Shown piece after piece: positions 30,961 through 64,000 of a DNA stretch of 64,000 bases. The notes beneath the pieces were generated by a model. It saw only the letters and a list, made by a program, of their open reading frames with translations. It made no database searches and was not told the DNA's origin. Location: positions 42,984 to 106,983 of the forward strand of contig CBDHGD010000002.1 of NCBI GenBank assembly GCA_965262875.1. Reading direction: 5' to 3'. The stretch is from Halioglobus sp. GTDB taxonomy: Bacteria; Pseudomonadota; Gammaproteobacteria; Pseudomonadales; Halieaceae. A program made the translations under genes and the position numbers. The first letter of the stretch is position 1; every line of letters starts with the position of its first letter.

Positions 30961-32559
30961 TCAGAACTCCATATCCAGACTAACCCCGAGGCCCCAGGCC
31001 AGACGCGCGTCCAGGTAGAGGTTGTCTGTCAAGCGGGCGGTGACATAGGGTCCCGCCATCCAGCCTTTGCCTTCGGTGTTCTCCTTGGCCGCGCTGGAGG
31101 TCAGGCTGTCGTATTGCAGCAGGCCACCCACCAGCAGATCGGGCGAGACCAGATAGTCCGCGCCCAGATAGGCAATGGCAAAATCACCGTTGGAGCCGGC
31201 ACTGCCGTTGAACTTGTTGAGGCTGCCTTCAAACCAGACATCAAAGCGGCGGCTCTCGTGATACGCCGTCCCGCCTTTTGTCACTTGCAGATGATCGGCG
31301 GCGCGGGTGACCTGGTCCAGGCTGGTGGCAAATTTGTAAGTCCCCGAACCAAGGCTGAGGAAGTTAAACTCGAACGGTTTGAGTTTGGTAATCTCGCCGG
31401 TGGCAAAGCTCAGCTGTTCCGAGCCAACACCGCGTTGCAGCCGGTTGATGCGGCGCGACAGTTTCGGCTGGTTGGCCAGAATGAGGTTGGTCCGCGTGTG
31501 CATAAACCGGTTGATGCTCTCGACTGTTTTTTGAACAGAGACATCGGATGTCACGGTGATGGTCACGGTGTCGGTGGCTGTTTGCCCCCGTGCATCGGTG
31601 ACGGTCAGTTTAAACACCAGCGCGCCGTTATCAGTCTGCCGGGTCGGTGCGGTGAAGGTCGGGCTGGCGGCGGTCGCATCGCTCAGGGTGACAGTCGTGC
31701 CGTCAGTTTGCGTCCATGCGTAGGTCAGGGTGTCGTCTGCATCAATATCGGTGCCGCTGCCATCCAAGATCACAGTATCGCCCTCGTTCACGGTTTGATC
31801 AGTGCCGGCATTGGCGGTTGGCGCGTCATTCACATTGGTGACGGTGATATCGAAGGCTGGCAGGGAAGCGCTGAGGGTGCCGTCGGAGACCGCGATCACA
31901 ATCCCCGATGTGGTGCCGACATCATCATTGTCCGGTGTTCCGGTCAAGGCACCTGTTGTGGTGCTGAATGTGGCCCAGCTTGGCTGTTTCACAATCGTAT
32001 AGGTTAGGGTGTCGCCCGCGTCCGCATCGTTTCCGGTCGGGGTGAAACTGTAGGCTGCGTCCTGCGCCACGCTGGTTGCGGGCGTGCCGGAGATGGTTGG
32101 CGCGTCATTCACATTGGGGATGACCCCCACAGTGGGAACAACAAGATCTGGAAGGGGTACCGGGTTCCCCGATTGGTTCATGACGGCAAGGCTTATTTGC
32201 AGGTCGGGGCTACCATCTCTATGGCCTTCCGGCACAGTGATGGTAAGTTCCGACGTATTACTACCACTGTCGGTGATCCGTCCACCACCAGTCGGGCGTG
32301 ATCCAATCGTCCATTTGTAGGTGTAGGGCCCATCGAGGACGGGGAGAACCTCAACGGCGAGTGTCAGGCTCTGGCCCGCTTGGATCATCGGAGATCCATC
32401 TAGCGTGAAGGAAGCGGTGCGCGGCTGGTTGGATATCTCGGCACTGGCGGTGACTGCCGAGAGCGTCAGGGAAAGCAGGAGGGCGGTGCAGAGTAACACA
32501 GGAGCCATCCCCAATCCCCGTGCAGAAGAACCCGCGATGAGCCGTAAAAAACCGCTCAA
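30961..32559 (-). CDS. autotransporter-type adhesin with cadherin-like/PKD-like repeats
   Basis: Signal peptide; repeated NVNDAPT...DADAGDTLTY modules; C-terminal beta-rich segment ending ...SLDMEF. Confidence 0.7.
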   Translation of the reverse strand: MSGFLRLIAGSSARGLGMAPVLLCTALLLSLTLSAVTASAEISNQPRTASFTLDGSPMIQAGQSLTLAVEVLPVLDGPYTYKWTIGSRPTGGGRITDSGSNTSELTITVPEGHRDGSPDLQISLAVMNQSGNPVPLPDLVVPTVGVIPNVNDAPTISGTPATSVAQDAAYSFTPTGNDADAGDTLTYTIVKQPSWATFSTTTGALTGTPDNDDVGTTSGIVIAVSDGTLSASLPAFDITVTNVNDAPTANAGTDQTVNEGDTVILDGSGTDIDADDTLTYAWTQTDGTTVTLSDATAASPTFTAPTRQTDNGALVFKLTVTDARGQTATDTVTITVTSDVSVQKTVESINRFMHTRTNLILANQPKLSRRINRLQRGVGSEQLSFATGEITKLKPFEFNFLSLGSGTYKFATSLDQVTRAADHLQVTKGGTAYHESRRFDVWFEGSLNKFNGSAGSNGDFAIAYLGADYLVSPDLLVGGLLQYDSLTSSAAKENTEGKGWMAGPYVTARLTDNLYLDARLAWGLGVSLDMEF

Positions 32560-39627: not shown

Positions 39628-40272
39628 TAGCAATGCGACCAGCCTGCGTGCAGATGTGGCCAGTCGGGGACCAGACGAGGTGAGTGGCTCGCTGGCGCAG
39701 ATCGAGGAGGTGTTAGCAACGCTGCGGGACGGGCTGGAGCTTGACTGGATCGAGATCGAGGGTGCGGACGGGTTTGCCACATTCCGGGCATTGCCTGAGG
39801 GATCCCGCGCGGATCTTCTGGCCTATGCGGTGGCGCAGACGCTGGAACCGAAGCTGGTCACGGAGTTGCGCGATCCGGTGCGCGAGACGGTCGAGATCGC
39901 GGTTCTGCCCAACCTGCGCGCTGTCTGGACGCTCGACGCGGCGTTCCTGAAGCGTCTGGCCAAATCAGACCTGCTGGAAATCCTGCGTGATATGGATATG
40001 CGCACCGAGGCGCAGACCTACCAAAAGGCGAAGAAGACAGGGCTTGTGAGCTATATGGTCAAGTTGTTTGCCGAACCCTTTGCCACGCTGACCGATCGCC
40101 AACGTCAGGCCGTCAACAGCTGGTGTCCGTCGGTGATGATGGCCGCGCTGCCAACGGAAACCCGCCGTTCCGAGCGTCAGGTGCAATTGCAACAATTCTC
40201 AACCCCGCTGGATCTGGCGTTTATCGTGGCCATGGCAGCGCGGATCACAAAGGCGGATGTGGTGCTGGACCC
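39628..40272 (+). pseudogene. ParB-like gene 3' part, running into a short N6-methylase-like N-terminal fragment
   Basis: The frame continues from the duplicated SNA codons. It ends with QFSTPLDLAFIVAMAARITKADVVLDP, which resembles the TP..LA.....D.VLEPSAG start of the methylase/helicase genes of conjugative elements. Confidence 0.6.
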
Positions 40273-41894
40273 GCGCCTTCATGGCGGGCGAAAAAGCCAT
40301 CCTGATTTTCTCGGATGCAGGTGGCACCGGACGCTCCTACCATGCGGCAGCTGGCGGGTCATCCACTGTGGGGTCATCCACTGCCTCGGCAGGGCTTGCT
40401 TGCAAGCGCCGTCGGACTGGCAGGGCCAAACTGGCCCGAGAAGTCGAGAGAGGGGCAGACGGGTCATCAGCCGGGGCCACAACCCCGAAACGGCGGCGGC
40501 ATTATCTCATGGAACCGGGCTGGCGGGCGGATGCGGCGATCCAGGGGCTGGGGCGCACCCATAGGGCGGCGCAGGTCTCGGCGCCGCATTTCCGGGTTTG
40601 CACGACGGATGTGCACGGCGAAAAACGCTTTACCTCGACCATTGCGCGGCGGCTCGATACATTAGGCGCGCTCACCAAAGGCCAGCGCGAAACTGCCTCG
40701 CAGGGCATGTTCCGGGCCAGTGACAATCTGGAAAGCCCGATTGCGCGGGCCTGCCTGCGCAGTCTCTACAGCGATATTGTGCGCGGCGAGGCCGTGAACC
40801 CACGGAACGGCGATACGCTGACCTATGAGACATTCTGCGACTGGACGGGATTGAGGCTGGTCACACGCGAGGGCGCGCTGTTGGAAGAACTGCCGCCAAT
40901 CCAGCGGTTTCTCAACCGGGTGCTGGCCTTGCCGATTGCGCTGCAGAATGCGGTGTTCTCTGCACTGATGGAAAAGATCAATCTGGCTTTAGCCCGCGCA
41001 CGCGATGCGGGGCGGCTGGATGTCGGGCTTGAAACCTTGCGCGGCGACCGGATTACGGCGGGCGCGGCACAGGAATTGCGCTGTTGCGAGACCACAGGAG
41101 CCATCACATCGCTGGTGCCGGTCAAGGTGGAACAGCGCCGGAGCTATCTTTCTGCGGCGGCGGTACTGGAGCAGCATCCATCGCTGACACCGATGCAGAA
41201 TACCGCCAGTGGCGCGGTGGCACTGGTCAGCCCGCGCCCGCGTCAGGTGTTTGACGAGGCGGGCGGGGTTGGCTTTGAACGGCGCATTATTCGTCCGACG
41301 GGCAGCGGGTTTATCGAAGAGCAGCAACTCACCCGCTCCAACTGGGAAGATGTGGACAGCGCGGCATTCCGTAAGCTCTGGGATGCGCAGGTGGCGGAGT
41401 TGCCCGAGATGGAAGTCACCGAGCTGCATCTGCTGACCGGGCTGATCCTGCCGATCTGGAAGCAGATCCCGGGGCAGAACACCCGGATTTACCGCGTGCA
41501 GCCCGAAAGCGGCCCGGCGTTGCTGGGGCGCGCACTTGATGCCGGTCAGGCGGCGGTTTTGCGCGGGCGGTTCATGGATCTGGCGGTGGCGACGCCGGAA
41601 GAGATGCTTGCCGTGGTGATTAGCACGGACCGGGCGGTGGAGCTCGGCGCGGGTCTCAGCCTGAAACAACGCCGTGTGGCGGGGTAAAAACGGCTGGAAC
41701 TGACAGGGGCAGGGACAGCAGAAATGGCCTGGCTGAAATCTTTGGGCTGCTTTACCGAAATCCACCAGTACCAGCTGCGGCTGTTTGTGCCGATGGATGA
41801 CCCGGCAGCCGATGACCCGGCAGCCGATGACCCGGTTTCCGATGAGAATGCGGCGCTGCGGATTGTGACCGAAATCGTGGCCCGGCAGGCTTGA
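40257..41894 (+). pseudogene. Strawberry-notch (Sno)-type helicase, C-terminal third only, with in-frame insertions and a premature TAA
   Basis: GEKAILIFSDAGGTGRSYHA ... RRRHYLMEPGWRADAAIQGLGRTHRAAQVSAPHF ... GEKRFTSTIARRLDTLGALTKGQR. An in-frame TAA lies at 41685-41687, followed by 69 more open codons. Confidence 0.75.
41796..41835 (+). repeat. 15-bp tandem repeat x2.7 (GATGACCCGGCAGCC)
   Basis: Read directly; encodes DDPAA DDPAA DDP. Confidence 0.85.
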
Positions 41895-42826: not shown

Positions 42827-43802
42827 TAATGTGCTGATGCTGTGGTGTGCGGCGCAGATGCGGGGCACTGTATCGCCGATGTGGATGACCTATGTGCAGG
42901 CGCAAAAGCTTGGCGGGCAGGTGCGCAAGGGCGAGAAATCCGCAACAGTCGTAAAATTTGGCAAAATGGTGAAAGACGGCGAGACCGATCCGGTGACAGG
43001 GGCGGCAGGGGATGATCGCCGCATTCCCTATGCGCGCGCCTACCGCGTGTTCAACGTCGAGCAGATCGACGGGCTGGATGCAGACTGCATTGCGCCGCCG
43101 GAACCACCGCGTGATTTTGGTACAAAGAATGACCCGGTGCTGGATGCCTGGTTTGCCAGCCTGGGCGTGCCGATCAAGCACAGTCCGGAGCCACAGGCGT
43201 ATTATGCGCCGGCGCGGGATCGTATCCATATGCCGCCGGTCCAGACATTCGAAAGCCTGCATCGGTATTTTCATGTTTTAGCCCATGAACATGCTCACGC
43301 GACAAAGCATTCCAGTCGGCTCGACCGCCACCACAGCGGTAAAACCAGGGTGCAGCGTTACGCACAGGAAGAGATTGTCGCGGATCTCGCCGGGGTGATG
43401 GTTTGTGCGCGGCTCGGAATTACGCCCTCGTTTGATCAGAGCGCGGCCTACCTTCAGCACTGGGTTGATGTGTTGAAAACCGACCACCGGGCTATTGTCA
43501 AAGCCGCAAGCATGGCACAGGCCGCCGCTGACTGGATGTTTGATGCGGCTGGTGAGTGTCCACCCCGGATAGAAGAGATTGAACCGCCCCTTGTCGAACC
43601 CGCATGGCGGAGCCGTGGCAGGGGGTGCCAGGGATCAAGGTTGCCTGATCACAAAGAGTGCTGCCCCGGACGCAAGGCTTGAAAGCAAAAGAGTGCTTTT
43701 TGAATTTTTGTCCCTAATGGGGGCAAGAAAGAACCGACAGTCGTACAATCCAGAGATGGGTGGCGCCTGTCATCTCAACTCAAAACATAGGAGATTACAA
43801 AC

Positions 43803-46252: not shown

Positions 46253-46687
46253 CTAGGCAGCGAGTGCTTTTGAGTACATTTTTTTCGCTGATTCAGTGTT
46301 TTCTTCCAAAGCTTTTGCAGAAAGTTCAGCAAACTCGTTACCTTGAACCAGGAATTTTTCATAAGCTGCCGAGCAATTAGAAGCGGCCACTTTGTAAAAA
46401 TCAGCAACATCAGTTGTCTTTGTCAGTGCCTTTGCGCTGTCGAAAGCAGTTGCAAGATTTGACAGGTAGTTATCATATGCTTTTTTAGCTAATTCTTCAC
46501 CGCTTTTGATGACTGCTGCGTTGTAGTCGATCAGGTTTTCCGCGAATTTTACAGAAGTATCTGTAGATTGTGCGCATGTATCTTGAGCTTCAGTTTTTGT
46601 TGATGCCGGTGTTTCCGTTGCGTGTGATGCCGGTATTTCCGGTTTTGCTGCTGCCGGGGCTTCCGTTACTTGTACTGTCTTGGCCAT
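46253..46687 (-). CDS. phasin-family protein
   Basis: 144 aa, Ala/Lys/Glu-rich and helical; FAENLIDYNAAVIKSGEELAKKAYDNYLSNLATAFDSAKAL resembles alphaproteobacterial phasins. Start set at ATG 46687. Confidence 0.6.
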   Translation of the reverse strand: MAKTVQVTEAPAAAKPEIPASHATETPASTKTEAQDTCAQSTDTSVKFAENLIDYNAAVIKSGEELAKKAYDNYLSNLATAFDSAKALTKTTDVADFYKVAASNCSAAYEKFLVQGNEFAELSAKALEENTESAKKMYSKALAA

Positions 46688-46922
46688 TGTTTTTTCCTTT
46701 GTAAGATTTACCAGTTTGGAAGTGTGTATTCCCTGTTTCATGAGGCAATACAACCAATAAATTATGCGCCGCAATATTCATCTGTCAGCATCAATTTTTG
46801 GGCATAACCCCTGCGGTGAAAATTACTGATTCAAATCAGTGTCAGCGGTGTGTCTCTGCGGCTTCAAAGAAAAAGAAATCTTCGTGAAATTGCGTTTTGT
46901 TTTTGGGTTATTTTGCCACCAC

Positions 46923-47660: not shown

Positions 47661-48227
47661 GTGTTTTTCAAGAGCAAAACAACTTCCGGCTCAAAGGCCG
47701 CAGAAACCCCCAAACCGGCAGCACCCAAAGCGTTGGTTGCGACAAGTCCCAAGCCAAATCATTTCAAGGCACCTGCCCGGAAGATCAAGCCGCCTGCCTC
47801 GGTTCTGTCGTCTGATCTGCACATTATCGGCACCGTAAAGACCATCGGAGATATTCAGGTTGATGGCACTGTCGAAGGCAATGTTCATGCGGACCTGCTG
47901 TGCATCGGAGAAAGTGGTGCCATAAAAGGTGAAGTGGTTGCGCGCGATCTTGTGGTAAACGGTCACATCGTTGGCAACGTGCGCAGTCTGAAAATACACC
48001 TGACCACAACCGCCCGTGTTCAGGGCGACATCATTCACAAGACCCTTGCAATCGAAAACGGTGCTTGCTTCGAAGGATCGGCCCAACATCAGGATGACCC
48101 TCTTATTCAAAAAGATCCCAAACCCAAGCCCAAAAGCCAGCCCGCGCCACGCGTGGAGGCTGGTAAAGGTCGTCAGGTTAAAGCCAGAAAAGCACCCAAT
48201 GCAAACCGCCCGAAATTGTCCGAATAA
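47661..48227 (+). CDS. bactofilin-family cytoskeletal protein
   Basis: Central beta-helix repeats: IIGTVKTIGDIQVDGTVEGNVHADLLCIGESGAIKGEVVARDLVVNGHIVGNV...VQGDIIHKTLAIENGACFEG. Pro/Lys-rich tails. GTG start. Confidence 0.8.
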   Translation: MFFKSKTTSGSKAAETPKPAAPKALVATSPKPNHFKAPARKIKPPASVLSSDLHIIGTVKTIGDIQVDGTVEGNVHADLLCIGESGAIKGEVVARDLVVNGHIVGNVRSLKIHLTTTARVQGDIIHKTLAIENGACFEGSAQHQDDPLIQKDPKPKPKSQPAPRVEAGKGRQVKARKAPNANRPKLSE

Positions 48228-52019: not shown

Positions 52020-52409
52020 TGTTGCAGCATTCTTACGGTGCTGTTGTCGTTGATCCGGTTGAGCGAAACGATAACAGTGTTTTAAAGCAACGGGTTGCTT
52101 TAACGGATCTCGACCGATCCTGTTTTTGTGGCCCTTGGGGTTCGGGCAAGCCGAACGCCACTTCGGGCTATTGGGGGCCTGTTCCGGCCCCCTTTCCAAA
52201 TTGTGGGGCTTCCCCATGCTCGCTTTAAAAATCAAAGATTTTGAAACCTGCGCGTGGGTCCAGTCCCGCGCTAAAGCGCGAATTTTGAAATTCCCCGCCC
52301 CTTTCTTTCATCGCATTCAGATTTTCAGAGCAGCGCCCTTACGGGCTTGTCTCAAAATATGAACCATTTGGGGAATAACCTCAAACACAGCGCAAAAGGA
52401 AACGTCAAA

Positions 52410-53285
52410 ATGGCAAAAGTTGATATGCACGCAGTAATTACAAACCAAGTAATAGCATTATTAGAAGCTGGCACAGTGCCTTGGGTTAAGCCTTGGAGTA
52501 TTGGCGGTTGCACATCCATGCCGCGTCGATCAACCGGGGCGTTTTATCAGGGCATTAATGTTTTAATCCTTTGGATGAAATGCACGGAAATGGGATATTC
52601 TTGCGACCAATGGTTAACCTATAAGCAAGCGGCAGCTCTGGGCGGCCAAGTCGTCAAAGGATCAAAGGCAACGCGGGTGGTTTATTACAACAAGACTATT
52701 GCTAAAGATGAAAACGACAAGGAAACAATCATTCCATTTCTGAAATCCTATAGCGTCTTTAACGCCAGTCAAATTGAAGGATTGCCGGCACAATACGACC
52801 TTGAGCCAGCAGAACCAGAGGTTTTTGAAAATGAAATCATTGAACAGGCTCAAAATTTTGTTGATGGGACAGGTGCAGAAATCAAACATGGGGGCAATCG
52901 TGCATTTTATGCGCGGAAACGAGACCAGGTGACCATGCCGGAGTTGAAACATTTTCACAGTTCAGAGGCGTATTTTCAAACATTGAATCACGAACTCATT
53001 CATTGGTCAGGTGCGAAAGCCCGGCTTGACCGGACCAAAGGCAAAAGGTTTGGTGATAATGCTTATGCCTTCGAAGAGCTGGTCGCTGATATGGGCGCGG
53101 CGTTTCTCTGTGCGCGTTTAAATATATCTCCGAACATGGAACAAACGGCGGCTTATATTCAAAGTTGGCTAAAAGTCTTGCGCGAAGATAAGAAGTTTAT
53201 TTTCCGCGCCGCGAGCCAGGCATCAAAGGCGGCTGAATACCTATTCGATCTAAATCCGCAACAAAATGAGCAGGAGGCCGCATAA
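52410..53285 (+). CDS. ardC: ArdC-type antirestriction protein, copy 2 (intact)
   Basis: LLEAGTVPWVKPW, YQGINVLILW, WLTYKQAAALGGQVVKGSK, zincin HELIHW. Start set at MAKVDMH. Confidence 0.85.
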   Translation: MAKVDMHAVITNQVIALLEAGTVPWVKPWSIGGCTSMPRRSTGAFYQGINVLILWMKCTEMGYSCDQWLTYKQAAALGGQVVKGSKATRVVYYNKTIAKDENDKETIIPFLKSYSVFNASQIEGLPAQYDLEPAEPEVFENEIIEQAQNFVDGTGAEIKHGGNRAFYARKRDQVTMPELKHFHSSEAYFQTLNHELIHWSGAKARLDRTKGKRFGDNAYAFEELVADMGAAFLCARLNISPNMEQTAAYIQSWLKVLREDKKFIFRAASQASKAAEYLFDLNPQQNEQEAA

Positions 53286-56497: not shown

Positions 56498-57054
56498 GGA
56501 TCGGTTTCCAATTTCGGGGTCATGCCGCAAGGTGCCACAGTTTGCCGCTTTTGCCAATCCTGTAAAATCACATAAACTGCACGTTTCGCCAAAACTCGCC
56601 AGCCTTGCCAAAAGCGCATAGGCTGCCAAAACGTGAGCAGCTGAACGCCAGATTTTCGGCCTCATGCGGGTGCGGTTTTCGGGCTGGCTTGCGGCATCCC
56701 GATCCAGACGCAAATCCCGCCGCGTGATTTTGGCATCAAATTCGGGCCTCGGCGTGCGTTGTTTTCTGCCCCGAATTGACCACCCCATCAAGGTTGTTTC
56801 CGGGCTTGCCGCGCGTCCGGTTCTGCGCTTGCCATCCGCATGACCGTTCCACGGATTGCAAGGTTTTGAGTGCGCGCAAATCTGCCAATCTTCCTTGTTT
56901 TCTTAGCATTCCCGCGCCAGCGGGCAGGCTTTGACCAAATAGGTCGAAGCCTTTTCGAGCGATTGAGAAACGCCTCTGATGTTTCAAACTGTTGTCGGGT
57001 TTACCGGCAAATTCCAAGGGCGCATCTTTGGACAGGTTTGCGGGAAATGTGCCC

Positions 57055-57156
57055 GCGTTGCCCCAAAAGCCAATCCTATATGAAAAACGAAGTTTTTAGG
57101 AAGGCGCGTTGCCCCAAAAGCCAATCCTATATGAAAAACGAAGTTTTTAGGAAGGC
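57055..57156. repeat. 51-bp perfect tandem repeat x2 upstream of traA
   Basis: GCGTTGCCCCAAAAGCCAATCCTATATGAAAAACGAAGTTTTTAGGAAGGC twice, followed by a partial third GCGTT. Confidence 0.9.
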
Positions 57157-57164
57157 GCGTTTGT

Positions 57165-57186
57165 ACATTGAATTTGTATTCAATGT
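57165..57186. promoter_or_regulatory. 9-bp stem hairpin, candidate oriT inverted repeat
   Basis: ACATTGAAT-TTGT-ATTCAATGT, ending 22 nt before the relaxase ATG. Confidence 0.4.
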
Positions 57187-57208
57187 GAAAGCGGTGTATT
57201 TAGAGGCC

Positions 57209-60200
57209 ATGGCAGTCTATTATTTCAATCGCAGTTCACTAGGAAGAAAGTCAGGTGGAAACGCCGTGGCTGCAGCTGCCTATCGCCATGCGACGCGGAT
57301 GACCAATGGGCAGAGCGGGGAGACGAGAGACTATTCCGGCAAGAAGCCAGAGCTGGTTCACGCGGAGATTACCCTGCCCGCAGATGCGCCCGCCTGGGCG
57401 GCAATGCGCTATAGTGGAGAAGACGTTGATGCGGCGTCCATGCAGCTTTGGAATGATCTGGAACTTCGCGAGGATCAACACAACAGGCGCGCTACTGCGC
57501 AATTGGCAAACAGCTTCACCTGCGCGCTGCCGGCAGAACTGTCGCATAAACAAAACATCGTTTTGGTGCGGGATTTTGTGCAGACATCGCTGGTGGGTGG
57601 TGGTGCCGTGGCGGACTGGGTTATCCACGATAAAGGTGACGGAAACCCCCATGCGCATGTGATGACCACACAGCGCACATTGGGGGAAAACGGGCTGGAT
57701 CAGAAAATCCGCACCTACGTGGATCGGCGTCAGGACATCGTAAATCTGCGGTTTAACTGGGCCTGTGCCGCCAATACTGCGCTTGAAACGGCCGGGTTCG
57801 AGGCGCGGATTGATCATCGGCGGCTGGATGTGCAGGGCATTAAACTGGGAGCGATCAGCTTTAATGCGGAGATCGCCGCAAACATCGAACAGGGTGATGC
57901 CGCCTACCGTGTGAAGCAACGGGTGATTGAGGCGCGGCTGGAAAACGAGACTTACCTGATGGCGCATCCGGAGCACATGCTGACGGTTGTGGCGGCGTCC
58001 AATCCCTTGTTTACCAAGGCTGATCTGGAGCGCGGGTTTCAGCAGTATCTGCCGACCAGTGTGGGGATTGACGGCATCGAGGGGCTGATGGGCCTGGCGA
58101 TGGCCAGTGACGATCTGGTGCGTCTGGATCGCAAGTCATCGCGGGGTGAGGCGTTCATGACCACGCGGGCCGTGGTGGAGATGAACCGCCGGATGGAGCG
58201 CGATGCGCTCACGATGGCGCAAAGCCGGTTGGTTCTGGGGGCTGGCCATGGGTACGAGGCGTTGCCGGATACGCTGTCAAACGCGCAGCGTATGGCGGTG
58301 CGGTCGATGGTGTCGTCCCGGCGTCTGACCCTGGTGACGGGTTATGCAGGGGCGGGTAAAACCTTTGCGGTCAAAGCAGCCGCAAAGGTCTGGGCAGCGC
58401 GCGGGTTTGCGGTTCTGGGTGGTGCGATTTCGGGAAAGGCCGCACAGGAGTTGAGCGGCATCGAGGGGCAGGTTGCGACGCTGGCGCAATGGGAGGCCAA
58501 GTGGGATCGCGGCGCGCGGCCGGCACAGGGGCGGTTTATCTTTGTGATGGATGAGGCCGGCATGGTCGGCACGGCAATCTGGTCGCGGATGCAGGCGCGG
58601 ATTAAGGCGATGGGCGGCAAGCTGATTGCGGTGGGGGATGCCGCGCAGTTGGCGCCGATACAGGATACGGCGGCGTTCAAGCATCTGACGAAGCTGGTGG
58701 GCCAGGTGACCATCGGTGCGGTGCGCCGGCAGGAGGATGCGGGCGACCGGCGGGCCACGGAAATGCTGTCGCGGGGCGGGGCGCAGGCGGCTCTGGCGAT
58801 TGATCACTATGCGCGCAAAGGGGCCATCCGGTTCGAGAAGAACCTTGGGAAGGCAATTGATGCGCTGTCCAAAGCTTATTTCGAGCATGAGGGCATGGAC
58901 CGCATTGCGCTGACGCATCTCAATGCGGATGTGGACGCTCTGAATGCGGCCATCCGGATCGAGGCTCTGGCGCGGGGGGTGGTGGATCACAAATCGCAGG
59001 TTTCCTATGCGCGCTTTGTGCCGGGCGCAGGGGCTGAGCCTCTGGTTCTGGGCATCGGGGACCGGGTGCGCTTTACCCGCCCTTACCGGGAGGCTTCGGT
59101 GACCAAATCGTCGTTTGCTTCGGTTATCGCCGCCTCGGAAACGCAGCTGATTTTAAGTGTGGACGGTCAGAGCGGGGTTGTTGCAATTGATCCGCGCCGG
59201 TTTTTGCATTTTGACTACGGCTATGCGGCCACGGTGCATAAATCGCAAGGCATGACGGTGGCCAATAATGTCGAGGTTTTGGTCACGTCGCAGTTTGACG
59301 CGCATCTTCTGGATGTCGCTCTGAGCCGTCACAAACAAACGGTCCGGATGTGGGTGCCGCAGGACAGTGTTGAGGGTCTGGCTGACATCAAGGGAATGGT
59401 GCAGCGCTCCAGCCTGATCGATGTGGTGCAGGCGAATGACCCCCCTGTTTTGGGCCGGATGTCGCGGGATATATCAGATGTGGCGGTGGGTGCACGGGTG
59501 GACCGGATTGCGGCGGATGCCCAAGGGCACATGACCGTGCCGCAGGGTCATCTGCCGCAGGGTCATCTGCCGCAGGGTCATGTTCTGGTGACGGGGTTGG
59601 CTGGCGATGCGCATCTTACCCAACAGGGGATGCGCATGGCGGGGCTGCTGCGGGCCGGATATGAGCCGGGCCAGGCGGATCTGGCGGATGATCCGCGTGG
59701 CTACGCAACTGATCCCTTGAAAGTTGTCGATGATCTGCTGGCGGAACAGGGGGTGTTCAGGGCCGCTGATGTGGCGGCACGGCTTGGCGCGGTGGTGCGT
59801 GCGCCGGATCTGTTTATGCGGCTCTTTGCGCAGGCGATGTCGCATCCCGATCTTGTGATCCTCAGCGAAGAAGGTTTGCGCGGTGAAGGGCGGGTGTATT
59901 CCTCAAACGCCCAGATAGCGCAGGTGGCCGGATTGATGGATCGCGGTGTCACTCTGGCGGTCGGCCAGGGGTTCGGGGCGGTGGATCCGTCAGTGGTTGT
60001 GGCAGCCTGGCAAGCTGCGGGGCTGGATTCTGCGGTGTGCGCGGGGCTGGAGTATGCGCTGTGGCCCTCGCGCATTGCACTTCTGGAGGAGATCGGCACC
60101 CGCCAGAGCGTGCGCGTTACGCAGGTTTTGGCGGAAATTGCGCGGCAAACCGGCACCCGGGTGATTGTGGTCAGTGCGGATGCACGCGCCGCCACGCGGT

Positions 60201-63200
60201 TTGCGGCGGCTGCAACGGCGGCTGCAACCAGTGCGCCGGCAGCGACCGCACCGACGGTAACGACCGCACCGGCGGCAGGCATCGAGGGGCTGGGGCTTTA
60301 TGCCTTTGGCAACCGCTTGCGTCAGGGGTCTTTGTCTTTGCGCACGGGGGATATTCTGGTGGTACCGGAGGCGTCCGGGTTGCATGTGGATGATCTTGAC
60401 CTGCTGACGGGGTTTGCGGAGACGAGTGGTGCCAAGCTGGTGTTGCACTCCGATCCATCGCTGGACGCGACAGGGTCGGTGCTGCGGCATCTGGGCGCAC
60501 GGGTTGAGACATCGGTGCTGGGCGGGTTTGAGGCGATTGCACCGGATCTGCGCGGGTTGCTTGAAGGCGGCGCGGCGCTTGAGGCGGCTTACAAAGCACT
60601 TTGGAACAAGGATGTCTTCATTGGCTCGAGCAACGATGAACTACAGGTCGATGAATATGTAGCCAGTTTTATCGCTGACGAGGCCGTGGATAAGCTCGGT
60701 GTGGCCAGCGCGGCGCGGATGCGCGATGCGCTCAATCTCCGGATTGAAGCGGCATTGCAGGAGAAGGATGGGGTCTCGAAGGAGCAGATTTACCAGATTG
60801 AACGCTTTGAGGCCCCTGCGCTGGCCGTGCATGAAGGTACGGTTCTAAAGCTGTGTCGTGATAATGTAGAGCATGATCTGAACGCGGGTGCGCGCGGTGT
60901 GGTCCGTTCTGTCGATGAAACGGGTCAGGTGACGGTACGGTTCGTCAAAGGGCGTTTTGGGGCGCAGGATGTGACGTTTGCGCCCGGCGCGCAGGCCGCC
61001 GGACTGGACTATGGCACTGTGTTCAGTGCGCGCGAGGCGCGTGGGGTTAATACCGACAGCCTGCACGGATTTGCCGGGCGCGGGTTGCAACGTCCGGATC
61101 TGATTGCCATGCTTAATAATCCATGTGGCAAGTTCAGCCTGTCGCTGCCGGTTAATCCGGACGCTCAGGGTGAGGGGGCCGGGTTTTTAAGCCGGGCGCT
61201 GGCGCGGGAGGGACGTGCCTCGGTGCTGGATTACGGATTTGATCCCAAACGGGCACTGGCAGCCGCAGCGGAAGCCGTGCGTGCGCCTGTGCCCGCGCCT
61301 GTGCGCGCGCCTGCTTTGGAACTCAGTGCAGCCGATCTTGCGATCAGGGCCGATACAGCGGCGCATTTCAAGGCGCAGCCCGCGTTTATCGTTTCTGCGC
61401 TGGTGCGGGAAAACAGCCGGTTTGATCACGGGCAGTTGCAGCGCCATATTCAAAAGCTGTTTCCGGCGGAATATCTAGATATGGAAGATCCGGGCATGGA
61501 TCATCCGGGCATGGATCATCCGGCGTTTGACCATAAAGCCTTCACCGATCAGGTGCTGTCAGAGACGTTAAAGAGCGGTGCGCTGATTAAGGCAGGGTTC
61601 AGCAGTTTTGACGGGGCACCGCTTTACACCACGCGGGTGCAGGCGGAGATCGAGGCGCGGGGATTGGAACAGGGCAAGGCGCTGGCGCGGTCAAAGCTCA
61701 CGGGCATTGGTCAGGTCATTGACGGTCAGGGCATTGACAGTCAGGCCATTGACGGTGGGGATATGGCCGGTCTGCGCAGTGACGTGGCCCATGTTGCGGG
61801 GGCGGCGCGGTTGAGCCTTGCCACAGTTGATCCGGGGCCGCAGAAGGATGGGTTCTTGCAGCAAGCGGGTGCTGTCTGGCGGGCGCGGGGCTATCAGGTG
61901 ATTGCCACCGGCACCAGAGGGGTTTTTGCGGAGCAAGCGGCTGAGCGGCTTGGTGACACTGTTCAACATGCCTCATTGGCGGCGCTGGAAGCGCAATGGG
62001 CGATGGGGCGTCTGCCGGAAGAGAAGTTTGTCGTCTTTCTGGATCAGGCGGACCGGGTTCAAAGTCCGCAATGGATGCGGGTGCAGGGCCGCGTGGCCGA
62101 AATGGGTGGCAAGTTGATTGCGCTCAGGCATTCCAGTGGTCTTTCGCCGGTTGGCTCCGTCAGTCTTTACCGCCTGCTGGCGCGCGAGGTTGGTGTCGAG
62201 CAGCGCGATCGCATTGCGCATCAGGTTTTGGAAGACGAGCGGATTGCCACCGCTTACCTGGATGAGCCGGGCGCACCGGCGGCGCGTGCGCTTGATATTT
62301 ACCACAACAAAGGTGCTGTGCGCTTTGCCGGTCGGGCTGAAGGCGCGCAGGCGGCACTCGCGCGGTCTTATTGGGCCGGCGAGTATCAGCCATCGCCGGA
62401 ACAGAGCGGCGAGGTGCGGTTGGCGATGGCACATGCGCGGGTAATGGTCACAACGCTTGATGCGGCCATTCGGGCTGAAGGGCAGCGTCTCGGGCGCCTG
62501 GGCGCGGGGGAGACCTGTTGGGGACGGCAGATCAACATTGGCGAGGTTCTGGAAGCCAGGAGCGACATTGCCCTGGCAGGTGTCACGGCGGGCGGGCGCG
62601 GGCGTGTGGTGAAATTGGGGCCGGAAAGCATTGAGCTGGAAATACCGGGACACCGTGACACCGTCGAGATTTACACCAGCGCGCGTCTGGCGCAGTTCAG
62701 CTCGAGCATTGCCACAACCATCCATGATGCGGAGGTCCGTATGGTGGATCGCGGCTATCTCTATGCCAGCCGGGGCATGGATCAGGAGATGTTCCGCGCC
62801 GGTATGACGCGGCACCGACAATCGCTTGAGCTGCATGTGCCCGAGACCGCGTTTCGGGATTACGAAGCCCTGCAAAAAGCCGTGCAGCGCAATACGGATC
62901 TGGAGATGCTGGATGATGTCAGCAGCGGTGTCAGCAGCGGTGTCAGCTCCGAGGACAGATCGCGGGATATGGTCATCGCGCCAGACATCAGTGCGCGGGC
63001 AGACCGCAGCGGTGCGGCCCTGTGGTCGGGTGGTGAGTTTGGTTTTGATGCACATCTGCAAGCCACGGCGGGGCGCATCGCGGGGCTGTTGTCGATTGAT
63101 TATAGGCCGGGCGCGCCGGTGCTGGGGAACGATCCACGCGGTTATGCCAGCGACCCTTTGAAACTGGTGGATGATCTTCTGGCGGAGCGCTCGGTCATCA

Positions 63201-64000
63201 GGGCGTCCGATGTGGCACGCCGCTTGGGCGGCGTGGTGCGCGATCCTGACAGTTTTGTGCGGCTCTTTGCCGAAGCGATGGCGCATCCCGATCTGGTGGT
63301 GCTCAGCGAAGAAGGTTTGCGCGGCGAAGGGCGGGTTTATGCGACGCTGGCCCATATCAGGCGCGAGCTTGATTTGGTGGACAAGGTGTCTGCCCTTGCG
63401 CTGGCGCAAAGCGACCCGAACGCGGGCAGCGACCCGAACGCGGGCAGCGACATACATCCGGCGCGCGGGCGGGTCGCGGCGGCGGCCCGCACAGACCACG
63501 GGCCGATGTCACCGGATCAGGAACGGGCGTTGCGTCATGCGACCTCGCCTGCGCGTTTTGCGATGATTTCCGGCATTGCCGGCTCGGGCAAATCCTCTGT
63601 ACTGAAAGGGGTGCGCGAGGTCTACGAGCGCGAAGGCTGGACTGTTGTTGGCGCGGCCCTGGCCGGCAAAGCGGCGCAGGGATTGCAGGCGGCGTCGGGT
63701 ATTCAGAGCACTACGCTGGCCGCACTTGGTTTTGCCGCCGCGCAGGAGCGCATCACCCTTGGTCCCAAAAGCCTGTTGGTTGTTGATGAGGCGGGTATGC
63801 TGAATGCGGATCATTTCGGGATGGTGCTGGAGTTGGTGGAGCGCACCGGGGCCAGTCTGCGCCTCGTTGGCGATCCACGCCAGTTGCAACCGCGAGGGCC
63901 GGGGGCGATGTGGCGGGCGTTTGCCGACCGGATTGGCACCGTTGATCTCACAACCGTCTGGCGTCAGCACGATCCGCTGGATCGAGAGGCCACATGTAAT
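57209..64000 (+). CDS. traA: giant MobA/MobL (MOBQ) relaxase-helicase, TraA-like, 3'-incomplete in the window
   Basis: I translated this frame by hand from ATG 57209 to 64000 and met no stop. N-terminus MAVYYFNRSSLGRKSGGNAVAAAAYRH; His motif HDKGDGNPHAHVM. Walker A GYAGAGKT at 58340, Walker B MDEAGM at 58547, VHKSQGMT at 59234. A second intact Walker A, GIAGSGKS, at 63572. The ORF is absent from the supplied track. Confidence 0.9.
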   Translation, partial: MAVYYFNRSSLGRKSGGNAVAAAAYRHATRMTNGQSGETRDYSGKKPELVHAEITLPADAPAWAAMRYSGEDVDAASMQLWNDLELREDQHNRRATAQLANSFTCALPAELSHKQNIVLVRDFVQTSLVGGGAVADWVIHDKGDGNPHAHVMTTQRTLGENGLDQKIRTYVDRRQDIVNLRFNWACAANTALETAGFEARIDHRRLDVQGIKLGAISFNAEIAANIEQGDAAYRVKQRVIEARLENETYLMAHPEHMLTVVAASNPLFTKADLERGFQQYLPTSVGIDGIEGLMGLAMASDDLVRLDRKSSRGEAFMTTRAVVEMNRRMERDALTMAQSRLVLGAGHGYEALPDTLSNAQRMAVRSMVSSRRLTLVTGYAGAGKTFAVKAAAKVWAARGFAVLGGAISGKAAQELSGIEGQVATLAQWEAKWDRGARPAQGRFIFVMDEAGMVGTAIWSRMQARIKAMGGKLIAVGDAAQLAPIQDTAAFKHLTKLVGQVTIGAVRRQEDAGDRRATEMLSRGGAQAALAIDHYARKGAIRFEKNLGKAIDALSKAYFEHEGMDRIALTHLNADVDALNAAIRIEALARGVVDHKSQVSYARFVPGAGAEPLVLGIGDRVRFTRPYREASVTKSSFASVIAASETQLILSVDGQSGVVAIDPRRFLHFDYGYAATVHKSQGMTVANNVEVLVTSQFDAHLLDVALSRHKQTVRMWVPQDSVEGLADIKGMVQRSSLIDVVQANDPPVLGRMSRDISDVAVGARVDRIAADAQGHMTVPQGHLPQGHLPQGHVLVTGLAGDAHLTQQGMRMAGLLRAGYEPGQADLADDPRGYATDPLKVVDDLLAEQGVFRAADVAARLGAVVRAPDLFMRLFAQAMSHPDLVILSEEGLRGEGRVYSSNAQIAQVAGLMDRGVTLAVGQGFGAVDPSVVVAAWQAAGLDSAVCAGLEYALWPSRIALLEEIGTRQSVRVTQVLAEIARQTGTRVIVVSADARAATRFAAAATAAATSAPAATAPTVTTAPAAGIEGLGLYAFGNRLRQGSLSLRTGDILVVPEASGLHVDDLDLLTGFAETSGAKLVLHSDPSLDATGSVLRHLGARVETSVLGGFEAIAPDLRGLLEGGAALEAAYKALWNKDVFIGSSNDELQVDEYVASFIADEAVDKLGVASAARMRDALNLRIEAALQEKDGVSKEQIYQIERFEAPALAVHEGTVLKLCRDNVEHDLNAGARGVVRSVDETGQVTVRFVKGRFGAQDVTFAPGAQAAGLDYGTVFSAREARGVNTDSLHGFAGRGLQRPDLIAMLNNPCGKFSLSLPVNPDAQGEGAGFLSRALAREGRASVLDYGFDPKRALAAAAEAVRAPVPAPVRAPALELSAADLAIRADTAAHFKAQPAFIVSALVRENSRFDHGQLQRHIQKLFPAEYLDMEDPGMDHPGMDHPAFDHKAFTDQVLSETLKSGALIKAGFSSFDGAPLYTTRVQAEIEARGLEQGKALARSKLTGIGQVIDGQGIDSQAIDGGDMAGLRSDVAHVAGAARLSLATVDPGPQKDGFLQQAGAVWRARGYQVIATGTRGVFAEQAAERLGDTVQHASLAALEAQWAMGRLPEEKFVVFLDQADRVQSPQWMRVQGRVAEMGGKLIALRHSSGLSPVGSVSLYRLLAREVGVEQRDRIAHQVLEDERIATAYLDEPGAPAARALDIYHNKGAVRFAGRAEGAQAALARSYWAGEYQPSPEQSGEVRLAMAHARVMVTTLDAAIRAEGQRLGRLGAGETCWGRQINIGEVLEARSDIALAGVTAGGRGRVVKLGPESIELEIPGHRDTVEIYTSARLAQFSSSIATTIHDAEVRMVDRGYLYASRGMDQEMFRAGMTRHRQSLELHVPETAFRDYEALQKAVQRNTDLEMLDDVSSGVSSGVSSEDRSRDMVIAPDISARADRSGAALWSGGEFGFDAHLQATAGRIAGLLSIDYRPGAPVLGNDPRGYASDPLKLVDDLLAERSVIRASDVARRLGGVVRDPDSFVRLFAEAMAHPDLVVLSEEGLRGEGRVYATLAHIRRELDLVDKVSALALAQSDPNAGSDPNAGSDIHPARGRVAAAARTDHGPMSPDQERALRHATSPARFAMISGIAGSGKSSVLKGVREVYEREGWTVVGAALAGKAAQGLQAASGIQSTTLAALGFAAAQERITLGPKSLLVVDEAGMLNADHFGMVLELVERTGASLRLVGDPRQLQPRGPGAMWRAFADRIGTVDLTTVWRQHDPLDREATCN

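What the first reader, a model, noticed from the sequence alone, without database searches (positions are those of the whole stretch)
57209..64000. Giant open-ended relaxase ORF (missing from the ORF track) with four tandem linker+RecD-like helicase modules, the two inner ones degenerate
One plus-strand frame is open from ATG 57209 to the window end: 2264 codons with no stop. The track lists no plus ORF in this frame here, which fits the ORF being dropped for lack of a stop.

Residues 1-250 are a MobA/MobL relaxase (AAAAYRH Tyr; HDKGDGNPHAHVM at 57624-57662).

The four modules are:
- Module 1 is a normal TraA helicase: GYAGAGKT (58340-58363), VMDEAGMV (58544-58567), GDAAQL, VHKSQGMT (59234-59257).
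- Module 2 (about 59400-61200) starts with the linker DDPRGYATDPLKVVDDLLAEQGVFRAADV. Aligned by eye, its Walker A position reads EEIGTRQS, Walker B reads VVPEASGL, GDxxQL reads HSDPSL, and the HKSQG position reads FSAREARG.
- Module 3 (about 61200-62870) reads VDPGPQKD, VFLDQADRV, LRHSSGLSP and IHDAEVRM at the same positions.
- Module 4 (about 62870 onward) starts with the linker NDPRGYASDPLKLVDDLLAERSVIRASDV and has intact GIAGSGKS (63572-63595), VVDEAGML (63779-63802) and GDPRQLQP.

Ti-type TraA has a single helicase. F-type TraI has one vestigial helicase plus one active one. An active-dead-dead-active arrangement on a MOBQ relaxase is not an architecture I know.
Basis: partly seen in the sequence, partly recalled or inferred. 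Interest (0 to 1): 0.8.

Follow-up and report, generated by a model that had tools for sequence, protein, structure and literature searches.

The report
Giant four-helicase conjugative relaxase gene
This is the first 2264 codons of a roughly 3000-residue DNA-transfer enzyme from a marine roseobacter mobile element, which carries four helicase-like engines in a row (the two inner ones switched off but kept); I found no paper describing this layout, and databases label such proteins only "AAA family ATPase".

Summary
Frame +1 from ATG 57209 stays open for 2264 codons to the window end. It encodes a MobA/MobL (MOBQ, Ti-type TraA) relaxase followed by four RecD2-like SF1B modules. Modules 1 and 4 keep the ATPase motifs; modules 2 and 3 have lost them.

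- The modules are not four equal repeats. They form an A-B-A'-B' pattern from duplication of a two-helicase unit (aa 243-1356 aligns collinearly with the orthologue's aa 1333-2418, E 1.5e-84).
- The "linker" is the conserved N-terminal subdomain of the helicase module.
- The protein is not unique. At least 38 database clusters of 2700-4000 aa have four modules, mostly from Rhodobacterales. Most keep P-loops in all four.

Only this clade (including Cognatiyoonia, Yoonia and Tateyamaria) shows active-dead-dead-active.

The dead modules fold confidently as RecD2/TraI-like (pLDDT 83-86; Foldseek E about 1e-17). They are under purifying selection (dN/dS about 0.2, against 0.8 in a junction).

Most likely they act as passive ssDNA clamps or recruitment modules between two motors, like F TraI's vestigial helicase; this is inferred, not shown. 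No description was found in the searchable literature. Verdict: a new variant of a known kind, of moderate-to-high interest.

The parts
57054..57161 (.). Perfect 51-bp tandem duplication (2.1 copies) in the intergenic region upstream of the relaxase start. The orthologous contig has a single copy. This is candidate promoter or oriT-proximal DNA, function untested.
   Evidence: TRF: 100% matches, score 216. Sequence. Single copy in L001.
57158..57193 (.). Inverted repeat with a 9-bp perfect core (ACATTGAAT nnnn ATTCAATGT), immediately before the RBS and ATG. It is conserved in the orthologous contig. Candidate operator or oriT arm, inferred only.
   Evidence: the repeat finder I1. Same core in L001 at about 3815-3838.
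57209..64000 (+). 5' part (2264 codons) of the giant relaxase gene, cut by the window end. The full length is expected to be about 2990-3000 codons.
   Evidence: No stop in the frame. P0001 is 2995 aa and aligns with 85% identity to query aa 20-2264 over its aa 1-2178.
57263..57847 (+). MobA/MobL (MOBQ) relaxase domain. Catalytic Tyr motif AAAAYRH at 57269-57289. HUH motif HDKGDGNPHAHVM at 57626-57664.
   Evidence: PF03389, 164-168 bits. TIGR02768. PDB 4ht4 NES nicking enzyme E 1.5e-13. Motif coordinates.
57959..59398 (+). Module 1 (type A), an intact SF1B helicase. Motifs: I GYAGAGKT, II VMDEAGMV, III GDAAQL, IV VRRQ, V VHKSQGMT, VI LSRHK.
   Evidence: AAA_30 E 6e-39. F TraI active helicase region 5n8o E 8e-21. 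Motif alignment.
59399..59575 (+). Junction between modules 1 and 2. It is fast-evolving and ends at an in-frame 15-bp x2.9 repeat (HLPQG x3, 59538-59581) that runs 6 nt into module 2.
   Evidence: dN/dS 0.81. TRF.
59576..61198 (+). Module 2 (type B, catalytically dead). It has a conserved N-subdomain (DDPRGYATDPLKVVDDLL...) and degenerate 1A and 2A/2B. Walker A reads EEIGTRQS, Walker B VVPEASGL, motif III SDPSL, motif V FSAREARG. An Ala/Thr/Pro-rich insertion sits in 1A.
   Evidence: AAA_30 E 1e-6. Aligns end to end with intact B modules. AF2 pLDDT 85.9, pTM 0.71. Foldseek RecD2 E 7e-17, TM 0.56-0.61; TraI E 5e-12. dN/dS 0.22.
61199..62878 (+). Module 3 (type A', catalytically dead). A clade-specific helical pre-region (aa 1331-1450) is followed by N-domain, 1A and 2A/2B. 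Walker A reads VDPGPQKD, Walker B FLDQADRV, motif III RHSSGL, motif V IHDAEVRM. Motif VI (TRHR) is retained.
   Evidence: Matches module 1 at E 5e-36. AAA_30 E 1e-8. AF2 pLDDT 83.3, pTM 0.75. Foldseek RecD2 E 4e-18; TraI E 8e-15. dN/dS 0.21.
63020..64000 (+). Module 4 (type B', intact), cut by the window end after motif IV. N-subdomain NDPRGYASDPLKLVDDLL. Motifs: I GIAGSGKS, II VVDEAGML, III GDPRQLQP, IV VWRQ. In the orthologue, motifs V (LHKSQG) and VI (ATRYR) follow.
   Evidence: AAA_30 E 3e-44. RecD2 3e1s E 2e-12. Lowest dN/dS, 0.06-0.11. P0001 continuation.

Best explanation
What it is. The gene encodes the relaxase of an integrated or plasmid-borne conjugative element of a marine Roseobacter-group bacterium. 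An N-terminal MOBQ (MobA/MobL, Ti-TraA type) transesterase nicks oriT and binds the 5' end of the transferred strand. It is followed by four RecD2-like SF1B modules.

How the architecture arose. A two-helicase unit (type A + type B) was duplicated once, long ago. In this clade the two inner modules (B and A') then lost every ATP-binding and hydrolysis motif. The outer ones (A and B') stayed complete 5'-3' motors.

How it most likely works. The dead modules keep the full N/1A/2A/2B fold and are under purifying selection. They most likely work as F-plasmid TraI's vestigial helicase domain does. That is, they would be passive ssDNA-binding clamps that lengthen the DNA-binding tunnel and raise processivity. 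They may also carry T4SS/coupling-protein recognition surfaces.

Shown versus inferred. Shown here: domain identities, motif states, fold predictions, the duplication history, selection on the dead modules, and the conjugative gene context. Inferred by analogy: ssDNA clamping, processivity, the recruitment roles, and that both outer modules are active motors.
For: Identity:
- MobA_MobL and four AAA_30 matches.
- TraA_Ti above its cut-off.
- Similarity to the NES relaxase, F TraI and RecD2 in the PDB.

Duplication history:
- Module 1 matches 3 and module 2 matches 4.
- The collinear A-B versus A'-B' alignment has E 1.5e-84.
- Across 38 four-module proteins, each module's nearest neighbour in another protein is the same ordinal module in 36-38 of 38 cases.

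Motif states:
- Table for 45 proteins, pattern counts, cultured isolates.

Fold of the dead modules:
- AF2 pLDDT 85.9 and 83.3.
- Foldseek top hits are RecD2 (E 7e-17 and 4e-18) and F TraI 5n8o (E 5e-12 and 8e-15).

Selection:
- dN/dS is 0.22 (module 2) and 0.21 (module 3), against 0.81 in the junction and 0.06-0.17 in the active parts.
- The dead modules stay full length and alignable down to about 35-45% identity. The module 2 N-subdomain is as conserved as the active domains, at 51-59%.

Context:
- ArdC, ParB-like, Sno helicase, HU and ProQ/FinO lie upstream.
- T4CP, VirB10, VirB8 and VirB6 lie downstream in the orthologous contig.

Precedent: TraI's vestigial helicase binds ssDNA, clamps through its 2B/2B-like subdomain, and carries translocation signal TSA (PMC5422253).
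Against: - No biochemical data exist for any member, so the clamp and recruitment roles rest on analogy.
- The ssDNA-contacting motifs Ia, III, IV and V are also degenerate in modules 2 and 3, so DNA binding is not demonstrated by sequence.
- The structure models used alignments containing intact homologous modules, which favours the helicase fold.
- dN/dS comes from a single orthologue pair.
- In sister lineages different modules have decayed: FpFp, FxFx, and one protein with three dead modules. Some module loss may therefore be tolerated rather than selected.
- The stop codon, motifs V-VI of module 4 and the roughly 570-aa C-terminal tail lie outside the window.
- No oriT could be identified.
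Confidence: 0.6

Rival explanations
1. The inner modules are primarily protein-interaction or secretion modules, not DNA clamps. They would act as docking platforms for the coupling protein and relaxosome partners, like translocation signals TSA/TSB. Alternatively they could be spacers that position the two motors.
For: - The best-conserved parts of dead module 2 are the N-subdomain (dN/dS 0.14; 51-59% identity at deep divergence) and 2A/2B (dN/dS 0.18). The former nucleotide-binding 1A is less constrained (dN/dS 0.36).
- In TraI the 2B/2B-like subdomain of the vestigial helicase is the translocation signal.
- The DNA-contact motifs are eroded.
Against: - In TraI the same subdomains do both jobs, so the two roles are not exclusive.
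- No partner is identified.
- The full RecA-like 1A/2A cores are retained, although a docking module would not need them.
Confidence: 0.22
2. The inner modules are non-functional remnants of the duplication, decaying slowly and carried along because in-frame deletion is rare.
For: - Different lineages have lost motifs in different modules, including a protein with three dead modules.
- The dead modules evolve about twice as fast as the active ones.
- Variable in-frame repeats lie at the module junctions, and module 2 carries a low-complexity Ala/Thr/Pro-rich insertion.
Against: - dN/dS of about 0.2 is far below neutrality and below the junction's 0.81.
- About 1100 residues are kept without a stop, frameshift or truncation in every clade member, down to 38% overall identity and across several genera.
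- Confident folded models.
Confidence: 0.12
3. The long ORF is an artefact: an assembly expansion or chimera, or a fusion of separate genes by sequencing error. Alternatively the protein is not a conjugative relaxase at all.
For: - The gene has 62-64% GC, against 46-57% in the rest of the window.
- The window ends inside it.
- No oriT or integrase was identified.
Against: - The same uninterrupted architecture is found in independent metagenome, MAG and isolate assemblies.
- The modules share only 25-39% identity, so they cannot be collapsed or expanded by an assembler.
- TraA_Ti scores above its cut-off.
- T4CP and T4SS genes lie next to the orthologue.
Confidence: 0.03

Closest known systems
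Ti-type conjugative relaxase TraA (TIGR02768; MOBQ relaxase-helicase of pTiC58 and rhizobial plasmids)
   Same: The N-terminal 735 residues (MobA/MobL transesterase + N-subdomain + SF1B helicase) match the equivalog model end to end at 858.6 bits, against a cut-off of 590. Module 4 also matches the single helicase of annotated plasmid TraA proteins at 36-40% identity. The context is a conjugative element with T4CP and VirB-type T4SS genes in the orthologous contig.
   Different: Ordinary TraA has one helicase and about 1100-1500 aa. This protein has four helicase-fold modules and about 3000 aa. The subfamily models PRK13889 and PRK13826 are not reached: 631 bits against 1015 and 588 against 1317. 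No PLSDB plasmid has a collinear multi-module match.
F/R1 TraI and R388 TrwC (MOBF relaxase-helicases); TraI = transesterase + vestigial helicase + active helicase + CTD
   Same: A relaxase is fused in one chain to RecD2-like SF1B modules, and a catalytically dead module is retained alongside an active one. Both dead modules here hit TraI 5n8o by fold: E 5e-12 and 8e-15, TMq 0.53-0.56. Module 1 hits the TraI helicase region by sequence. TraI provides the functional precedent of ssDNA clamping and translocation signals.
   Different: - The relaxase domain is MobA/MobL (MOBQ), not TrwC (MOBF). TraI_TIGR scores 81 bits against a cut-off of 930.
- The order differs: here active-dead-dead-active, in TraI dead-active.
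- Here there are two dead and two intact modules.
- The inactivation arose independently, within a duplicated two-helicase unit.
Two-helicase relaxases of Rhodobacterales (for example P0027, Roseobacter sp. HKCCA0434, 1738 aa; P0043, Solirhodobacter olei, 1592 aa; annotated 'AAA family ATPase')
   Same: Same MobA/MobL + type A + type B layout. The query's module 4 is most similar to their second module (up to 52% identity in the P-loop domain). They look like the pre-duplication state.
   Different: They have two modules instead of four. In 9 of the 62 two-module proteins both modules keep full motif sets ('FF'), and in 43 the second is partly eroded ('Fp'). I found no description of these in the literature either.
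RecD2 (Deinococcus radiodurans), the archetypal SF1B 5'-3' helicase
   Same: It is the best structural match for both dead modules (E 7e-17 and 4e-18, TM 0.55-0.61 over about 540 columns), covering the N-domain, 1A, 2A and the SH3-like 2B. Module 4 matches it by sequence.
   Different: RecD2 is a free-standing active enzyme. Modules 2 and 3 lack the Walker A, Walker B, III and V signatures.

Membership tests
MOBQ / MobA_MobL relaxase | Match to the MobA/MobL transesterase profile above the curated cut-off | tested here: met
   PF03389 scores 164.3 bits against a cut-off of 26.7, over aa 19-213. NF041496 MobQ scores 160.7 bits, below its cut-off of 200.
MOBQ / MobA_MobL relaxase | Catalytic Tyr motif I near the N-terminus and the HUH motif III (NPHxH) | tested here: met
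   AAAAYRH at aa 21-27 and HDKGDGNPHAHVM at aa 140-152.
MOBQ / MobA_MobL relaxase | Site-specific nicking at a cognate oriT | not testable with these tools
   The MOBQ nic core TGCGCCCT lies at 57017-57024 (-). It occurs 3 times in the window against 3.7 expected and is not conserved in L001, so no oriT is assigned.
Ti-type TraA (TIGR02768 equivalog) | Score above the equivalog cut-off | tested here: met
   858.6 bits against 590.45, with aa 1-735 matching model positions 1-734 of 751.
Ti-type TraA (TIGR02768 equivalog) | Architecture of one relaxase + one helicase (about 1100-1500 aa) | tested here: not met
   Four AAA_30 stretches. The orthologue is 2995 aa. PRK13889 and PRK13826 are below their cut-offs.
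F-type TraI / TrwC (MOBF relaxase-helicase) | TrwC-type transesterase domain and a TraI equivalog score | tested here: not met
   No TrwC Pfam hit. TIGR02760 scores 81.4 bits against 929.85 and PRK13709 scores 84.6 against 2212. Both match helicase regions only.
F-type TraI / TrwC (MOBF relaxase-helicase) | A catalytically dead RecD2-like module retained next to an active one | tested here: met
   Motif loss in modules 2 and 3 with a retained RecD2/TraI-like fold. This is a functional resemblance, not family membership.
SF1B (RecD2/Pif1/Dda-like) helicase | Walker A GxxxxGK[ST], Walker B DE, motif III GDxxQL: modules 1 and 4 | tested here: met
   Module 1: GYAGAGKT/VMDEAGMV/GDAAQL. Module 4: GIAGSGKS/VVDEAGML/GDPRQL. 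Motifs V-VI of module 4 are seen only in orthologue P0001.
SF1B (RecD2/Pif1/Dda-like) helicase | Walker A, Walker B and motif III: modules 2 and 3 | tested here: not met
   Module 2: EIGTRQSV/VVPEASGL/SDPSLD. Module 3: VDPGPQKD/FLDQADRV/RHSSGL. The same loss is seen in all clade members, including the isolates.
SF1B (RecD2/Pif1/Dda-like) helicase | N/1A/2A/2B fold: modules 2 and 3 | tested here: met
   Predicted structures only. Foldseek gives RecD2 E 7e-17 and 4e-18, followed by RecD, Pif1, Dda and TraI.
SF1B (RecD2/Pif1/Dda-like) helicase | ATP-dependent 5'-3' unwinding activity | not testable with these tools
   Requires biochemistry.

The most novel reading that the evidence does not exclude
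These proteins form an undescribed class of giant (2.7-4.0 kaa) multi-helicase MOBQ relaxases in marine Rhodobacterales conjugative elements. They were built by duplicating a two-helicase unit. Individual modules were then switched off in lineage-specific patterns: motor-clamp-clamp-motor here, motor-partial-motor-partial elsewhere, and motor plus three dead modules in one case. If the whole chain is translocated like TraI, they would be larger than the 1756-aa F TraI, which is known to be translocated, and would make a natural series for studying how active and vestigial helicase modules cooperate on one ssDNA.
Probability: 0.5. Interest if true: 0.72.

Novelty: new variant of a known kind. 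Interest (0 to 1): 0.6.

Why it matters
Relaxase-helicase fusions drive DNA unwinding during conjugation. The only structurally understood one, F TraI, owes its exceptional processivity to an active helicase paired with a vestigial one.

Here the same idea has evolved independently on a MOBQ scaffold and is taken further, with four RecD2-like modules, two of them dead but conserved. Related proteins show other on/off combinations. This provides:
- a natural experiment on what vestigial helicase modules are for;
- a test of how large a protein a T4SS can handle, at about 3000-4000 aa;
- a correction to current annotation, because RefSeq calls these proteins 'AAA family ATPase' (whether MOB-typing tools built around ordinary relaxase sizes handle them correctly was not tested);
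- a marker for a group of roseobacter conjugative elements that is absent from curated plasmid collections.

Tried and rejected
- Megablast of the gene against PLSDB plasmids: no match.
- Protein-pattern scan of GTDB genome contigs: 21 pattern hits, none confirmed, so the source genome was not identified.
- Whole-protein self-BLAST returned nothing usable. Segment-against-segment BLAST worked.
- Sequence search of modules 2 and 3 alone against the PDB: no hit even at E 1. Fold comparison was needed.
- Pfam on the junctions, on the module 3 pre-region and on the roughly 570-aa C-terminal tail of the orthologue: nothing significant. The only matches were a sub-threshold DUF4314 hit in module 2's 2B region and a sub-threshold SH3_13 hit in orthologue P0001's module 4 2A/2B segment.
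- oriT call from the MOBQ nic core TGCGCCCT: rejected. There are 3 matches against 3.7 expected, and the site is not conserved in L001.
- Search for element boundaries: no tRNA in the window and no integrase among the ORFs tested. ICE versus plasmid is therefore not settled, though the first 30 kb or so look chromosomal.
- Six literature searches and four papers read (65, 70, 71, 72). None describes a relaxase with more than two helicase-like modules. Only open-access literature and bioRxiv were searched.
- 'Four equal tandem repeats' was rejected in favour of A-B-A'-B'.

Full report
OBSERVATION

The plus-strand frame starting at ATG 57209 is open for all 2264 codons to the end of the window. 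The nearest upstream in-frame stop is at 56867. Only the HUH motif is displaced by 2 nt, to 57626-57664. ATG 57209 is the right start. The TraA_Ti model aligns from residue 1. The orthologous contig L001 carries the same ATGGCAGTTTATTATTTT in frame, and its gene was simply called 19 codons short.

WHAT THE PROTEIN IS

Pfam finds MobA_MobL once (aa 19-213, 164 bits). It finds AAA_30 in four separate stretches: aa 356-542, about 972-1098, about 1529-1707 and 2100-2263. The E-values when scanned separately are 6e-39, 1e-6, 1e-8 and 3e-44. NCBIfam TIGR02768 (Ti-type relaxase TraA) scores 858.6 bits against a cut-off of 590 over aa 1-735. By sequence against the PDB:
- the relaxase resembles the NES nicking enzyme (4ht4);
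- module 1 resembles the helicase region of F TraI (5n8o);
- module 4 resembles RecD2 (3e1s);
- modules 2 and 3 alone hit nothing.

THE MODULES ARE OF TWO KINDS

Segment-against-segment BLAST shows module 1 matching module 3 (aa 243-718 vs 1380-1879, 26% identity, E 5e-36). It also shows module 2 matching module 4 (aa 800-1083 vs 1947-2223, 39%, E 1e-48). Matches between the two types are weak, apart from the shared P-loop of modules 1 and 4. Query aa 243-1356 aligns collinearly with aa 1333-2418 of the orthologue P0001 (E 1.5e-84). P0001's module 2 aligns with the whole of its module 4 (E 1e-54). The layout is therefore A-B-A'-B', a duplicated two-helicase unit.

It holds most of the invariant columns of the B-module alignment and is modelled with high confidence. 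It is homologous to the region before the helicase in ordinary TraA proteins.

THE FAMILY

The homologue search returned 193 proteins. The closest, P0001, is 2995 aa and 85% identical over 99% of the query, so the full protein here is about 3000 aa. A custom P-loop HMM finds four modules in 38 of the 120 listed clusters (2732-3930 aa) and two modules in 62 (about 1300-2500 aa). Named members are all "AAA family ATPase" from Ruegeria, Aestuariivita, Roseobacter and Solirhodobacter. In the query's own clade they come from Cognatiyoonia sp. IB215182 (WP_320243172.1, 2964 aa), Yoonia sp. R2-816 and an uncultured Tateyamaria.

In all four-module proteins, identity between modules 1 and 3 and between modules 2 and 4 exceeds identity across types. 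Each module's nearest neighbour in another protein is the same ordinal module in 36-38 of 38 cases. This indicates one old duplication.

A scan of 1.84 billion representative proteins with modules 2+3 gave 779 hits, 36 of them at E below 1e-30. The dead pair is matched collinearly in only three 50%-identity clusters, and about 15-20 further giant representatives reach up to 4009 aa. No PLSDB plasmid has a collinear multi-module match; the best places span about 2.2 kb of ordinary traA.

MOTIF STATES

Among the four-module proteins:
- The commonest state (22 of 38) has both A modules fully intact. Both B modules keep the P-loop and an acidic Walker B but have lost motif III.
- The query clade alone (QUERY and P0001-P0005) is intact-dead-dead-intact.
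- P0006 and P0122 are similar but with a weakened module 4.

The isolates confirm the pattern, for example Cognatiyoonia with GYAGAGKT / EISTANTA / LPADHAQAT / GYAGSGKT. Other decay patterns exist, including P0131 with one intact and three dead modules.

In the window, module 2 reads EEIGTRQS / VVPEASGL / SDPSL / FSAREARG. Module 3 reads VDPGPQKD / FLDQADRV / RHSSGL / IHDAEVRM. Motifs Ia and IV are also degenerate in both. Module 4 is closest to the second, intact module of two-module relaxases such as P0027 (52%).

THE DEAD MODULES ARE FOLDED AND CONSTRAINED

AlphaFold2 models were built on alignments of homologous modules. They gave mean pLDDT 85.9 (pTM 0.71) for module 2 and 83.3 (pTM 0.75) for module 3. 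Foldseek against the PDB puts RecD2 first for both: E 7e-17 and 4e-18, TM 0.55-0.61 over about 540 columns. RecD, Pif1, Dda and F TraI follow (5n8o: E 5e-12 and 8e-15).

Nei-Gojobori dN/dS between the window gene and its L001 orthologue:
- relaxase 0.11
- module 1 0.17
- module 1-2 junction 0.81
- module 2 0.22
- module 3 0.21
- module 4 0.08

Within module 2, the N-subdomain (0.14) and 2A/2B (0.18) are more constrained than the former nucleotide-binding 1A (0.36).

At deeper divergence (P0004-P0006, P0122) the dead modules remain full length at 32-45% identity. This compares with 32-65% for the subdomains of the intact modules. The module 2 N-subdomain holds 51-59%.

Caveats: the models may lean on intact homologues in the alignments, and the dN/dS rests on one pair.

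CONTEXT

The first 30 kb or so of the window look chromosomal: ilvD/edd-type dehydratase, porin, FGGY kinases and an ABC solute-binding protein. From about 34 kb there are mobile-element genes:
- ParB-like
- Sno-type Helicase_C_4
- two ArdC/MPTase genes
- a SLOG protein
- ProQ/FinO
- HU

In L001 the orthologue is followed by HigBA, a VirD4/TraG-type coupling protein, and VirB10, VirB8 and VirB6 homologues. In the Tateyamaria MAG it sits beside a VirC1/ParA-like gene and close to groES/groEL. No tRNA or integrase was found in the window.

The 417-bp region upstream of the start contains a perfect 51-bp tandem duplication, which is single-copy in L001. It also contains a conserved 9-bp perfect inverted repeat just before the RBS. 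A MOBQ-like nic core is present but is no more than chance.

MECHANISM

Shown: a MOBQ transesterase, two complete SF1B motif sets (modules 1 and 4), two motif-less but RecD2-folded modules under purifying selection, and a conjugative setting.

Inferred: the relaxase nicks oriT and is led to the T4SS by the coupling protein, and the outer modules translocate 5'-3' on the transferred strand. The inner modules would act like TraI's vestigial helicase domain. That domain binds ssDNA, clamps it with its 2B/2B-like subdomain, contributes to TraI's very high processivity, and carries translocation signal TSA (PMC5422253).

The stronger constraint on the N-subdomain and 2A/2B of module 2 fits either a clamp or a recruitment role. 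I cannot separate the two.

The neutral-remnant reading is disfavoured by the selection and retention data. The artefact reading is disfavoured by the independent assemblies and by the low identity between modules.

COMPARISON WITH WHAT IS KNOWN, AND NOVELTY

The N-terminal third is a bona fide Ti-type TraA; the whole protein is not. TraI is the functional analogue but belongs to a different relaxase family (MOBF), with a different module order and number.

[quoted passage not shown] Neither the marine mobilome survey (PMC11104534) nor the polyvalent-protein survey (PMC5512222) describes such proteins, and the six literature searches found none.

I therefore rate it a new variant of a known kind. 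It is real, conserved, present in RefSeq under an uninformative name and, as far as I could search, undescribed. It is not a new principle, because TraI already shows the pairing of active and vestigial helicases.

Noticed in passing
window 57054-57161: A perfect 51-bp tandem duplication (2.1 copies) lies 48 bp upstream of the relaxase start. Each unit contains a small AAAAAC-GAA-GTTTTT hairpin. The orthologous contig L001 has one diverged copy, so the duplication is recent.
   Followed up: partly
window 57158-57193; L001 about 3815-3838: A 9-bp perfect inverted repeat (ACATTGAAT nnnn ATTCAATGT) directly precedes the RBS. It is conserved in the orthologue and is a candidate operator or oriT arm.
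   Followed up: partly
window 59538-59581, 61488-61523, 61709-61756, 62917-62947, 63410-63451: In-frame, mostly perfect short tandem repeats (periods 12, 15 and 18 bp) encode the peptide repeats HLPQG, DHPGM, GQxID, SSGV and SDPNAG. All lie in junction or loop regions between or before helicase subdomains. Copy number differs from the orthologue P0001.
   Followed up: partly
window 58001-64000 versus the rest: The relaxase gene has 62-64% GC and a strong positive GC skew (+0.16 to +0.23). The rest of the window is 46-59% GC, apart from one 63% block at 40-42 kb.
   Followed up: no
window 42831-43682 and 52347-53285: There are two ArdC-N + zincin metallopeptidase (MPTase-PolyVal) genes in the same element. 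The first matches only the C-terminal part of the ArdC-N profile, so it may be truncated.
   Followed up: no
window 39656-41687: The Sno-type Helicase_C_4 ORF (40257-41687) matches only profile positions 83-271. It is overlapped by another long ORF (39656-40564) in a different frame, and a GC jump from 48% to 63% occurs at about 40 kb. This may be a frameshifted or fragmented large helicase gene.
   Followed up: no
L001 3916-12903 (P0001): The database gene call for the closest orthologue starts 19 codons too late, at a GTG. The conserved ATG with MAVYYFE... lies upstream in frame.
   Followed up: yes
P0131 (3352 aa); P0020-P0050 and P0123-P0129: Other family members show different states. P0131 has one intact and three motif-less modules. 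A large subgroup carries an extra N-terminal extension of about 430 aa, so that module 1 starts near aa 790.
   Followed up: partly
P0001 aa about 2420-2995 (beyond the window): The C-terminal tail of about 570 aa after module 4 has no Pfam match, and its role is unknown. It could be a relaxosome or T4CP recruitment domain.
   Followed up: partly
window 30961-32559 (-): An ORF with PKD/Ig-like repeats and an autotransporter beta-domain lies at the apparent border between chromosomal-looking genes and mobile-element genes. No tRNA or integrase was found nearby.
   Followed up: partly
window 46253-46774 (-) and 47661-48227 (+): Phasin-like and bactofilin genes lie among the mobile-element genes.
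   Followed up: no
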